A stretch of 64,000 bases of DNA from Escherichia coli (lineage in GTDB: Bacteria > Pseudomonadota > Gammaproteobacteria > Enterobacterales > Enterobacteriaceae). The notes under the pieces were generated by a model, which saw only the letters and a list, made by a program, of their open reading frames with translations, made no database searches and was not told where the DNA came from. The DNA lies in the NCBI RefSeq assembly GCF_045037415.1, contig NZ_CP173438.1, one strand, 5' to 3'. Shown here one piece after another: positions 51,899 through 52,632 of this stretch; the first letter of the stretch is position 1, and each line of letters starts with the position of its first letter. The position numbers and the translations under genes are program-made.

Positions 51899-52632
51899 TT
51901 TAAACCCCATATATATTTTCTGCTACACTTCGAAAAACATATGATTCGTCTTTTCAGTTAGTTAAATATGTCTATAAGATGCCATCAATTAAAAAAAGTA
52001 ACTTCACTATAATCGGATTTAGCGTTATGGGGATCAACTTTTAGCGGTGAGTTAATGCTATTAAATAAATATTTATCCTAAGATAAACTCTGAATTAATA
52101 TCTTTATCTTATTTTGTTGTTTTAAATGAATCTTTTAGGGACTATTTTATTAAACCCACGAGCCTTTATCATCTATCATTCTTTTCAGAATAAATTATTT
52201 TATATTCGGTATTTATTCGCACATCAGACGATAATAACGCTATGTGATAGTCATCAGGTTTCCCTGTTACGGAAACCTGTGCAACAGAATCTGTGAACCT
52301 GTACAGAATATTTTTGGAAAAAACACCAGCGAACGGAAGAACATCGCGATGTATCACAAGTTGATGGCAATCAAATAGACAACATGAATATAACTGTTAG
52401 TATTTAATTGATTTCACTTATGAGTATGCGTGTTTCATTTACGGCCAGGAATGCTGATGATGACAACATTACTACCCGTTTTCACTAAGCCTTCCCCATT
52501 GGCGCTCAATGCTCTGTGCGCTGGTCGTATTTGCCATTTCCTTCTTATCCCGGATGGAAGAATCCGCTGAACGTCGTTCGGTGGCAGTTGTAACACGTGT
52601 CGATTGCTTACAGGGATTATGGCGGGTCGATT

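What the first reader, a model, noticed from the sequence alone, without database searches (positions are those of the whole stretch)
51899..52632. Short AT-rich spacer between yhiM and yhiI where K-12 carries yhiJ and yhiL
yhiM and yhiI are divergent and separated by only about 730 bp of AT-rich non-coding DNA. From memory K-12 has about 3.5 kb here containing yhiJ and the yhiL pseudogene. This is either the ancestral empty site or a deletion scar, and a useful marker of lineage.
Basis: partly seen in the sequence, partly recalled or inferred. Interest (0 to 1): 0.35.

Follow-up and report, generated by a model that had tools for sequence, protein, structure and literature searches.

The report
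Ancestral yhiM–yhiI control region, B2 type
The short AT-rich gap between yhiM and yhiI is the original Escherichia arrangement, kept by ST131-like E. coli, and not a deletion scar; K-12 is the altered form, having swapped in a foreign 5.4 kb block that carries yhiL, yhiJ and a very divergent yhiM.

Summary
yhiM (50846-51898, minus) and yhiI (52633-53700, plus) are divergent and 734 bp apart, at 35.8% GC. K-12 has 4,238 bp there, holding the yhiL pseudogene and yhiJ.

Two corrections:
- The spacer is not all non-coding. It holds the small gene yhiY (52457-52570), a known upstream ORF of yhiI, and the yhiY-yhiI promoter.
- The difference from K-12 is not a simple indel. The whole stretch 50755 to about 52411, including yhiM, is replaced. 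yhiM is 80% identical in DNA (dS 1.41), against 96-98% (dS about 0.16) for the flanks.

The spacer contains no yhiJ or yhiL fragments, IS ends or junction repeats. E. albertii, E. whittamii and two other Escherichia species have the same short, collinear spacer. Their yhiM alleles sit at normal species distance from the window's allele but about 80% from K-12's.

The short form is therefore ancestral, and the K-12 form is an imported replacement. Short-form DNA occurs in 1,128 of 5,426 complete E. coli genomes (ST131, O18, O6:K2:H1 lineages); the long form occurs in 4,288.

This is an ordinary, already annotated locus and a sound lineage marker. Interest is low.

The parts
49566..50759 (+). 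yhiN. The left junction of the segment that differs from K-12 lies in its last codons: the window ends ...QDLVAE*, K-12 ends ...QDLIAAKSS*.
   Evidence: 97.9% identity to K-12 stops at window 50754. The 3' end alignment shows K-12 diverging from all other Escherichia after CAGGATTTG.
50755..52411 (.). Segment that is either very divergent from K-12 (about 80-84% where it can be aligned) or unalignable with it. It corresponds to 5.4 kb in K-12 (L002 1600-6988).
   Evidence: blastn of the window against K-12. GC is 39.2% here, and 37.9% for the K-12 counterpart.
50807..50833 (.). 11-bp-stem hairpin (CAGATAAGGCG-CTCAA-CGCCTTATCTG) with T-rich runs on both sides, between the convergent yhiN and yhiM. 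It is probably a bidirectional terminator. It is present in the other Escherichia species but not in K-12, whose yhiN-yhiM spacer is an unrelated 314 bp.
   Evidence: Read directly from the alignment. Not scanned with the terminator tool.
50846..51898 (-). yhiM (DUF2776 inner-membrane protein, 350 aa), ancestral-type allele.
   Evidence: Pfam DUF2776, E = 1e-155. DNA identity is 80.1% to K-12 yhiM, but 90-92% to E. albertii, E. whittamii and Escherichia sp. E1V33. dS is 1.41 against K-12 and 0.32-0.52 against the outgroups.
51899..52632 (.). The spacer of the finding: a divergent control region between yhiM and the yhiY-yhiI-rbbA-yhhJ operon.
   Evidence: Collinear with the spacers of four other Escherichia species at 86% mean column identity.
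51921..51957 (-). Counterpart of the yhiM promoter mapped in K-12: -35 CTGAAA (51957-51952), 17 nt spacer, -10 TTCGAA (51934-51929), transcription-start equivalent near 51921. It is a poorer consensus match than K-12's ATGAAA/TTCAAT, so the real yhiM start site in this lineage is unknown.
   Evidence: Position inferred by aligning the window to K-12 and applying the primer-extension result of PMC6604978. Homology only.
52062..52091 (-). Block upstream of yhiM conserved even with the K-12 haplotype (27 of 30 bases). On the yhiM-sense strand it contains TTAGGATAAATATTT (52081-52067), which matches 12 of 15 positions of the GadE ChIP-exo motif TTARGAWWWWAAATA.
   Evidence: blastn E = 8e-6 and collinear position. 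Conserved in all outgroups. Motif taken from PMC4918353. The match is weak and untested.
52376..52403 (+). Promoter of yhiY-yhiI: -35 TAGACA, 16 nt spacer, extended -10 TGtTAGTAT. The predicted transcription start is G52410.
   Evidence: Consensus scan. In K-12 the same hexamers lie 7 nt upstream of L002 6892, which is the 5' end of the 'entire 5' UTR' that Adams et al. 2021 cloned. 95% conserved among five species.
52457..52570 (+). yhiY, a 37-aa upstream ORF of yhiI.
   Evidence: RefSeq annotation. Pfam YhiY, E = 8.6e-28. Ribosome profiling in K-12. Listed as a uORF with nearby 3' ends.
52460..52509 (+). C-rich, G-poor stretch inside yhiY (14-15 C against 3-5 G per 40 nt). It is a candidate Rho-loading (rut) site.
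   Evidence: C minus G is 11, above the 99th percentile of 40-nt windows in this window. The rut role is inferred.
52568..52590 (+). Positions equivalent to the 3' ends mapped in K-12 at -65 and -43 relative to yhiI. The -43 end is flagged Rho-dependent and 'uORF'.
   Evidence: Supplementary file 3 of PMC7815308. The window and K-12 align without gaps here.
52633..53700 (+). yhiI (HlyD-family adaptor), first large gene of the yhiI-rbbA-yhhJ operon. Normal E. coli divergence from K-12.
   Evidence: 95.6% DNA identity and dS 0.175 against K-12. Pfam HlyD_3.

Best explanation
The 734-bp spacer is the ancestral divergent control region between yhiM and the yhiY-yhiI-rbbA-yhhJ operon. It was inherited from the common ancestor of the genus Escherichia and is retained by the ST131-like lineages (ST131, ST95, ST73; phylogroup B2 by general knowledge).

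The left 500 bp is AT-rich and carries the yhiM regulatory DNA. The right 260 bp carries a sigma-70 promoter (52376-52403, start near 52410), a 47-nt leader, and the upstream ORF yhiY with a C-rich stretch. Rho-dependent 3' ends mapped in K-12 fall just before yhiI. Translation of yhiY probably controls how much transcription reaches yhiI.

The K-12 state is the derived one. A 5.4-kb block came from a lineage outside the sampled Escherichia and replaced the ancestral 1.65 kb by homologous recombination. That block holds a new yhiN tail, a xenologous yhiM, the low-GC paralogues yhiL and yhiJ, a diverged copy of the yhiY promoter, and an extra 96 nt of leader. The crossovers lie in the 3' end of yhiN and just downstream of the yhiY-yhiI promoter.

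Shown here: the anatomy, the collinearity with outgroups, the divergence pattern and the population counts. Inferred: the direction and mode of transfer, the promoter and start positions in this strain, and the Rho/uORF mechanism (taken from K-12 data).
For: 1. No yhiJ/yhiL remnants in the spacer or anywhere in the window: tblastn best E is 1.2 in the spacer and 0.15 in the whole window. No IS ends or flanking repeats.

2. E. albertii, E. whittamii, strain E69 and Escherichia sp. E1V33 all have yhiM and yhiI 670-733 bp apart with no DUF4049 gene. Their spacers align end to end with the window's at 86% column identity. E. whittamii is collinear with window 44000-60000 in a single 16-kb alignment at 91.8%.

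3. The window's yhiM is 88-92% identical to the outgroup alleles (dS 0.32-0.52), in the same range as yhiI and rbbA. K-12 yhiM is about 80% from every one of them (dS 1.3-1.95). dN/dS is about 0.04, which indicates purifying selection rather than fast evolution.

4. Divergence from K-12 jumps from 2-4% to 20% exactly at 50754/50755, and returns to about 4% at 52403.

5. K-12 yhiL and yhiJ have 34.9% and 37.5% GC.

6. Real scars look different. Strain E423 has the K-12 yhiM allele, then IS1, then a truncated yhiY. MOD1-EC7003 keeps a yhiJ fragment covering aa 461-511.

7. Population: 1,128 of 5,426 genomes carry the short-specific DNA at 98.4-100% identity, and 4,288 carry the long form.

8. 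The promoter position agrees with the K-12 5' end. yhiY is a validated uORF with Rho-sensitive downstream 3' ends.
Against: - The donor of the K-12 block was not identified. No sampled genome holds a close relative of it outside E. coli and MOD1-EC7003.
- The outgroup sample is one genome per species. E. fergusonii was not recovered.
- Strain SCPM-O-B-8794 has yhiM 97% identical to the window while its yhiN is 91.5% identical. This locus has therefore been exchanged between lineages, and strictly vertical descent in the ST131-like lineages is not proven.
- IAI39 carries the long form. By general knowledge it is phylogroup F, often placed near B2. The long form must therefore have spread by recombination, or the tree must place B2 basally.
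- Phylogroups were not typed here.
- The promoter, transcription start and Rho termination are transferred from K-12 by alignment and were not measured in this lineage.
Confidence: 0.82

Rival explanations
1. Deletion scar: an ancestor of the ST131-like lineages had yhiL and yhiJ as K-12 does, and lost them by a clean deletion.
For: Deletions of exactly these genes do occur: an IS1-mediated one in strain E423 and a decayed yhiJ in MOD1-EC7003. yhiL is already a pseudogene in K-12.
Against: - There is no coding remnant, no IS and no junction repeat.
- The 283 bp at 52092-52374 has no counterpart in K-12 but is present in the outgroups.
- The adjacent yhiM differs from K-12 by dS 1.41, which a deletion cannot produce.
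- Four outgroup species share the short form.
Confidence: 0.02
2. Re-acquisition: early E. coli, including the ancestor of the ST131-like lineages, carried the long haplotype. That ancestor later replaced it by recombination with the ancestral-type segment from another Escherichia lineage (SCPM-O-B-8794-like). The architecture would still be the genus-ancestral one, but not vertically inherited.
For: SCPM-O-B-8794 is 95-100% identical to the window across yhiM and the first 250 bp of the spacer, but 84-94% identical across yhiN. The change falls near 50740-50840, close to the K-12 junction. MOD1-EC7003 has a mosaic yhiM, which shows that recombination breakpoints occur at this locus.
Against: - The direction of the exchange with SCPM is unknown; transfer from the ST131-like lineages into SCPM fits equally well.
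- Distances from the window's yhiM to E. whittamii, E. albertii and E1V33 match those of the flanking genes.
- The short segment shows 98.4-100% identity across ST131, O18 and O6 lineages, so it predates their diversification.
Confidence: 0.13
3. Rapid divergence in place: K-12-type yhiM evolved quickly within E. coli after yhiL/yhiJ were inserted next to it, with no import of yhiM itself.
For: The region is AT-rich and unusually polymorphic. The long haplotype ranges from 90 to 100% identity among E. coli genomes.
Against: The excess divergence is synonymous (dS 1.41, dN 0.062, third-position identity 0.54), whereas the flanks have dS 0.16-0.18. A local eight-fold rise in the silent rate, bounded by sharp junctions, is not a known in-place process. 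The non-coding DNA on both sides of yhiM is also replaced.
Confidence: 0.03

Closest known systems
E. coli K-12 yhiM-yhiL-yhiJ-yhiY-yhiI region (b3487-b3491)
   Same: Same flanking genes in the same orientations. The yhiY ORF is the same apart from two amino-acid differences, and the last 230 bp before yhiI is 95-96% identical. The yhiY-yhiI promoter hexamers are the same type (TAGACA, 16 nt, TA[G/C]TAT).
   Different: - K-12 has 4,238 bp instead of 734 bp, with the DUF4049 paralogues yhiL (pseudogene) and yhiJ.
- Its yhiM allele is 80% identical in DNA and starts with GTG, not ATG.
- It has a different yhiN tail and a different yhiN-yhiM spacer.
- It has 96 extra nt just after the yhiY-yhiI transcription start, giving a 151-nt leader against 47 nt here.
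uORF-dependent, Rho-mediated premature termination in E. coli 5' leaders (e.g. mdtU-mdtJI; Adams et al. 2021, PMC7815308)
   Same: A short translated ORF lies upstream of the operon. In K-12, 3' ends were mapped 43 and 65 nt before the main ORF, and a yhiI fusion was more than 2-fold higher in rhoR66S. The authors list yhiY-yhiI as a candidate of this class. The window keeps the ORF, the spacing and a C-rich stretch.
   Different: No one has shown that yhiY translation controls termination, and the signal sensed is unknown. The leader in this lineage is 104 nt shorter than the one studied in K-12.
Segments of the E. coli chromosome where strains carry very divergent alleles because of recombinational replacement from outside the species (general knowledge: regions such as rfb/gnd or mutS-rpoS)
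   Same: Sharp junctions, silent divergence several-fold above the genome background, low-GC accessory genes linked to the divergent core allele, and mosaic recombinants in related lineages.
   Different: There are no mobility genes, tRNA or repeats at the junctions. There is no obvious selective driver such as a surface antigen. In this comparison it is the model strain K-12, not the pathogen lineage, that carries the import.

Membership tests
Deletion scar of yhiL-yhiJ | Residual fragments of the deleted genes at the junction | tested here: not met
   tblastn of YhiJ and YhiL against 51800-52700 with relaxed settings gives best E = 1.2, with hits scattered on both strands.
Deletion scar of yhiL-yhiJ | Flanks otherwise the same haplotype as the long form | tested here: not met
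   yhiM is 80% identical to K-12 (dS 1.41), whereas yhiI and rbbA are 96% identical. The true scar in E423 keeps the K-12 YhiM protein WP_001028905.1.
Deletion scar of yhiL-yhiJ | IS element or direct repeats at the junction | tested here: not met
   Only chance-level 12-14 nt repeats were found in 50700-52700.
Ancestral (never occupied) site | Orthologous, collinear spacer in outgroup species that lack the insert | tested here: met
   E. albertii 733 bp, E. whittamii 670 bp, E69 670 bp and E1V33 714 bp; none has a DUF4049 gene. The full-length alignment has 86% column identity. There is a 16-kb single alignment with E. whittamii.
Ancestral (never occupied) site | Flanking-gene divergence from outgroups matches the rest of the locus | tested here: met
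   yhiM dS against the outgroups is 0.32-0.52. The corresponding ranges are 0.22-0.41 for yhiI and 0.14-0.28 for rbbA.
Ancestral (never occupied) site | Vertical inheritance within E. coli (short form at the root of the species tree) | not testable with these tools
   Short/long state could not be cross-tabulated against a core-genome tree. The SCPM-O-B-8794 result shows that exchange between lineages occurs at this locus.
yhiY upstream ORF of yhiI | 37-codon ORF matching the YhiY family, ending about 62 nt before yhiI | tested here: met
   52457-52570. Pfam PF23514, E = 8.6e-28, full length. RefSeq annotation in an identical genome.
yhiY upstream ORF of yhiI | Translated in vivo | not testable with these tools
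   Shown for K-12 by ribosome profiling with stalled initiation complexes. Not measured in this lineage.
Rho-dependent leader attenuator | Rho-sensitive 3' ends in the leader | not testable with these tools
   K-12 data only: 3' ends at -43 and -65, and a yhiI fusion more than 2-fold up in rhoR66S. The sequence here aligns without gaps.
Rho-dependent leader attenuator | C-rich, G-poor RNA upstream of the termination points | tested here: met
   52460-52509 has 14-15 C against 3-5 G per 40 nt, above the 99th percentile for this window.
Structured cis-regulatory RNA (riboswitch or known leader family) | Match to an Rfam family, or a fold more stable than shuffles with covarying pairs | tested here: not met
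   No Rfam match at E <= 1. Fold z-score is -0.11. None of 69 predicted pairs shows a compensatory change.
GadE-regulated promoter (GAD box) | Match to TTARGAWWWWAAATA upstream of the start site | tested here: inconclusive
   12 of 15 positions match at 52081-52067 (yhiM sense), about 150 bp upstream of the inferred start. The block is conserved in all species and in K-12. No chance expectation was computed and no binding data exist for this allele.
Horizontally acquired island (applies to the K-12 long form, not to the window) | Low GC, patchy distribution, xenologous linked allele | tested here: met
   yhiL 34.9% and yhiJ 37.5% GC. Absent from four outgroup species and from 1,128 E. coli genomes. 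Linked yhiM has dS 1.3-1.95 to all other alleles.
Horizontally acquired island (applies to the K-12 long form, not to the window) | Mobility genes, tRNA target or flanking direct repeats | tested here: not met
   None in K-12 L002 1500-7300. Not carried on true plasmids.

The most novel reading that the evidence does not exclude
K-12 and about four-fifths of sequenced E. coli carry a 5.4-kb xenologous replacement at this locus, from a donor outside the sampled Escherichia (silent divergence is about 1.4 substitutions per site in yhiM). If so, the yhiM allele, its mapped promoter and the 151-nt yhiY-yhiI leader studied in K-12 are imports. ST131-type strains would keep the genus-original control region with a 47-nt leader. 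This could give lineage-specific differences in acid-stress expression of yhiM and in Rho/uORF control of the RbbA transporter operon.
Probability: 0.55. Interest if true: 0.3.

Novelty: already known. Interest (0 to 1): 0.17.

Why it matters
The practical value is modest.

- It is a clean presence/absence and allele marker. It separates the ST131/ST95/ST73-type lineages (about 21% of complete genomes) from the rest of E. coli, and the direction of change is now resolved.
- It is a caution for work based on K-12. The yhiM gene (acid resistance, GABA export), its mapped promoter and the yhiY-yhiI leader that have been studied belong to an imported haplotype. They differ from those in major extraintestinal pathogenic lineages.
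- It touches no open question, and no new kind of element is involved.

Tried and rejected
- tblastn of YhiJ and YhiL against the spacer and the whole window, looking for remnants: only chance hits.
- Repeat search for IS ends or target duplications in the window and at the K-12 junctions: nothing convincing. An 18-nt inverted repeat brackets yhiL-yhiJ in K-12 but may be chance.
- Rfam scan at E <= 1 over 50700-52800: no hit.
- RNA structure in the yhiY leader: z-score -0.11 and no covariation. The very high conservation of the leader is therefore not explained by a stable fold.
- Terminator scan of the spacer: none.
- Small ORFs in the spacer other than yhiY (52126-52296, 52169-52357, 52244-52378): they lie in the least conserved, indel-rich part (36-60% pairwise identity), so they were rejected as genes.
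- DUF4049 on plasmids, as a hint of mobility: the only three hits are chromosome-sized records.
- Literature search for yhiJ together with phylogroup: nothing.
- A CRP-like half-site near 52348 and another near 52244, inspected by eye: too weak to claim.
- The K-12 yhiM promoter hexamers are poorly conserved here (TTCGAA at -10). I do not claim to know the yhiM start site in this lineage.

Full report
**1. The observation**

In the window, yhiM runs on the minus strand from 51898 down to 50846 (350 aa, Pfam DUF2776). yhiI starts on the plus strand at 52633. The interval 51899-52632 is 734 bp, exactly as reported. Its GC content is 35.8% against 49.8% for the whole window, which is the lowest 3% of 734-bp windows. 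The low GC is confined to the left 504 bp (31.0%); the right 230 bp is 46.5%.

The window is from an ST131-like E. coli. The region is 100% identical to many O25b:H4-ST131 chromosomes. Window 39399-64000 matches strain USVAST219 at 99.988% without gaps.

In K-12, yhiM and yhiI are 4,238 bp apart. The interval holds a frameshifted YhiJ/YhiL-family pseudogene (yhiL), yhiJ, and the small gene yhiY. The remembered gene order is therefore right, and '3.5 kb' is the net difference.

**2. The spacer is not empty**

RefSeq annotates yhiY, 37 codons, at 52457-52570. It matches Pfam YhiY over its full length at E = 8.6e-28. Its translation in K-12 was shown by ribosome profiling (10.1101/511675).

Adams et al. 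2021 (PMC7815308) list yhiY-yhiI among uORFs with nearby downstream 3' ends. They map 3' ends 65 and 43 nt upstream of yhiI; the -43 end is flagged Rho-dependent and 'uORF'. A yhiI fusion was more than 2-fold higher in a rho mutant.

The 5' end of the 'entire 5' UTR' they cloned is K-12 L002 6892. That is 7 nt after a TAGACA, 16 nt, TACTAT promoter. The window has the same promoter, TAGACA, 16 nt, TGtTAGTAT, at 52376-52403. This puts the likely start at G52410 and gives a 47-nt leader. K-12 has about 96 extra nt just after the start, giving 151 nt.

A C-rich, G-poor stretch lies at 52460-52509 inside yhiY, above the 99th percentile for this window. It sits 60-130 nt upstream of the positions equivalent to the K-12 3' ends (52568 and 52590). 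I infer that it is the Rho-loading site and that ribosomes translating yhiY mask it. This inference is untested.

**3. Comparison with K-12**

blastn shows 97.9% identity up to window 50754, which lies in the last codons of yhiN. Identity then falls to 80.2% across yhiM, with almost nothing alignable across the left 480 bp of the spacer. It returns to 96.4% from 52403 onward.

Only two short collinear islands align inside the spacer:
- 52062-52091 with the K-12 yhiM-yhiL spacer (27 of 30 bases).
- 52375-52411 with the 37 bp that follow the yhiJ stop codon (84%). This is the yhiY-yhiI promoter.

K-12 also has a different yhiN tail (...IAAKSS* instead of ...VAE*) and an unrelated 314-bp yhiN-yhiM spacer in place of the 86-bp one here. 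The difference is therefore a replacement of 1.65 kb (50755 to about 52411) by 5.4 kb, not an indel of two genes.

**4. No scar**

YhiJ and YhiL searched against the spacer with very permissive settings give only chance hits (best E = 1.2). No DUF4049 gene exists anywhere in the window. There are no IS ends and no meaningful repeats.

Real scars at this locus look different:
- Strain E423 has the K-12 YhiM protein, 96 bp of K-12 upstream DNA, an IS1 and a truncated yhiY.
- Escherichia sp. MOD1-EC7003 keeps a yhiJ fragment (aa 461-511) next to a K-12-like yhiM. It has lost yhiI-rbbA-yhhJ.

**5. Outgroups**

A scan of one genome per species found yhiM in six Escherichia loci. In E. albertii, E. 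whittamii, strain E69 and Escherichia sp. E1V33, yhiM and yhiI are 733, 670, 670 and 714 bp apart, with yhiY but no DUF4049 gene. These spacers align with the window's from end to end at 86% mean column identity. E. whittamii is collinear with window 44000-60000 in one 16-kb alignment at 91.8%.

DNA identity and silent divergence (dS) of yhiM, with the flanking genes yhiI and rbbA for comparison:

| Comparison | DNA identity | dS |
|---|---|---|
| Window yhiM vs outgroup alleles | 88-92% | 0.32-0.52 |
| K-12 yhiM vs the same outgroup alleles | about 80% | 1.3-1.95 |
| K-12 yhiM vs window yhiM | 80.1% | 1.41 (dN 0.062) |
| Window yhiI vs outgroups | 91-95% | 0.22-0.41 |
| Window rbbA vs outgroups | not computed | 0.14-0.28 |
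| Window vs K-12, yhiI and rbbA | 96% | 0.175 and 0.155 |

The excess divergence of K-12 yhiM is silent, and the protein is under purifying selection. This indicates a long separate history, not local rapid evolution.

The window type is therefore the ancestral Escherichia arrangement. The K-12 type is an import from outside the sampled genus, joined by homologous crossovers in the yhiN tail and near the yhiY-yhiI start. The low GC of yhiL (34.9%) and yhiJ (37.5%) fits this. No mobility genes or junction repeats accompany the K-12 block, and DUF4049 genes are not on true plasmids.

**6. Caveats on vertical descent**

- SCPM-O-B-8794 is labelled E. coli but is about 8% divergent in yhiN. Its yhiM and the adjacent 250 bp are 95-100% identical to the window.
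- MOD1-EC7003 has a two-block mosaic yhiM: nt 1-720 are K-12-like and the rest is ancestral-like.
- Alleles at this locus therefore move between lineages. I cannot exclude that the ST131-like lineages regained the ancestral-type segment (rival, 0.13). Either way the spacer is not a deletion scar.
- IAI39, phylogroup F by general knowledge, has the long form. The long form thus probably spread within the species by recombination.

**7. Population**

DNA specific to the short form (51930-52370) is present in 1,128 of 5,426 complete genomes at 98.4-100% identity. These include O25b:H4-ST131, APEC O18 and O6:K2:H1 strains. The K-12-type interval is present in 4,288 genomes, including K-12, BL21, O157:H7 and O111:H8, at 90-100% identity. 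The two counts sum to 5,416. As a marker it is sound. That the short-form lineages are phylogroup B2 rests on general knowledge of these sequence types, not on typing done here.

**8. Conservation inside the spacer**

Pairwise identity among the five species, by sub-region:

| Region | Pairwise identity | Content |
|---|---|---|
| 52099-52303 | 36-60% | many indels; the small ORFs there are not conserved |
| 51949-52098 | 78-88% | yhiM upstream region |
| 52362-52481 | 95-100% | promoter, leader and first eight yhiY codons |

The 52362-52481 block is more conserved than the neighbouring genes. This is not explained by RNA structure: the fold z-score is -0.11, there is no compensatory change, and there is no Rfam hit. 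In E1V33, yhiY is frameshifted by one extra C.

The block at 52062-52091 contains a 12-of-15 match to the GadE motif of PMC4918353 on the yhiM-sense strand. That paper lists yhiM among genes whose expression is controlled by both GadE and GadX, and in K-12 yhiM expression falls by half in gadE and gadX mutants. The match is weak and about 150 bp from the inferred start, so it is only a lead.

The yhiM promoter mapped in K-12 (ATGAAA, 17 nt, TTCAAT; PMC6604978) corresponds here to CTGAAA, 17 nt, TTCGAA at 51957-51929, a poor -10. The yhiM start site in this lineage is therefore open.

**9. Verdict**

The feature is real, correctly located and correctly compared with K-12. It is the ancestral divergent control region of yhiM and yhiY-yhiI-rbbA-yhhJ, not a scar. 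The interesting asymmetry is that K-12 carries the foreign haplotype.

All components are already annotated or described, and strain-specific replacement of a chromosomal segment is a familiar phenomenon. Novelty is therefore low, and interest is about 0.17.

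Noticed in passing
window 52362-52481: Promoter, 47-nt leader and the first eight codons of yhiY are 95-100% identical among five Escherichia species. The flanking genes are only 88-95% identical. No stable RNA fold, covariation or Rfam family explains this.
   Followed up: partly
window 57665-63265: Downstream of yhhJ the window carries a seven-gene sugar-utilisation cluster before nikR: class II aldolase, HPr-like protein, FGGY kinase, PTS IIC/IIB/IIA and a GntR regulator. K-12 homology ends at 57643; at this position K-12 has the ISEc1 transposase yhhI and strain AR_0119 has hicAB. E. whittamii is collinear with the window here, so this too looks ancestral.
   Followed up: partly
L008 (Escherichia sp. 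MOD1-EC7003) 9334-11053: yhiM is a two-block mosaic: nt 1-720 are 91-99% K-12-like and nt 721-1053 are ancestral-like. Beside it sits a yhiJ fragment (aa 461-511). yhiY-yhiI-rbbA-yhhJ are deleted, so the PTS/aldolase cluster abuts the fragment.
   Followed up: partly
L005 (strain SCPM-O-B-8794) 1-2584: yhiM and the adjacent 250 bp are 95-100% identical to the window, whereas yhiN next door is only 84-94% identical. This points to a recent exchange of this segment between that lineage and the ST131-like lineages; the direction is unknown.
   Followed up: partly
window 51899-52632 in other ST131 genomes: Two ST131-type chromosomes have an insertion sequence inside this spacer: IS1 in strain AZ 186 and IS5 in strain MB1341. 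The exact insertion points were not determined.
   Followed up: no
L004 (strain E423) 6141-7160: An IS1A sits between a K-12-type yhiM and a truncated yhiY, with yhiL and yhiJ gone. This is an independent, IS-mediated deletion of the same two genes in a long-haplotype background.
   Followed up: partly
L006 (Escherichia sp. E1V33) 7262-7373: yhiY is frameshifted by one extra C after codon 13, although the surrounding nucleotides stay highly conserved. It could be a sequencing error, or a hint that only the start of the ORF matters.
   Followed up: no
L002 (K-12) 6894-6988: About 96 nt are present only in the long haplotype, immediately downstream of the yhiY-yhiI transcription start. They contain a short hairpin (CTGTTCCTGCAACTGAACAG). 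Any effect on leader function is unknown.
   Followed up: no
L002 (K-12) 3196-3213 and 6764-6781: An 18-nt inverted repeat (89% complementary) brackets almost exactly the yhiL-yhiJ pair. It may be chance.
   Followed up: no
L002 5231-6853 and L003 3394-4983: YhiJ and YhiL are old paralogues (35% aa identity). They share GDxxGDR and GNHE motifs, and YhiJ has a sub-threshold Pfam match to calcineurin-like phosphoesterases. This suggests a metallophosphatase fold for DUF4049. YhiL also has an N-terminal DUF6860.
   Followed up: no
E. coli genome hit H153 (strain EV36 mutant 1a, NZ_CP093368.1): A strain I recall as a K-12/K1 hybrid carries the short-form spacer. If that recollection is right, this part of its chromosome would come from the K1 donor.
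   Followed up: no
window 50807-50833: A REP-like 11-bp-stem hairpin lies between the convergent yhiN and yhiM. It is conserved in other Escherichia species but replaced in K-12 by an unrelated 314-bp spacer.
   Followed up: no
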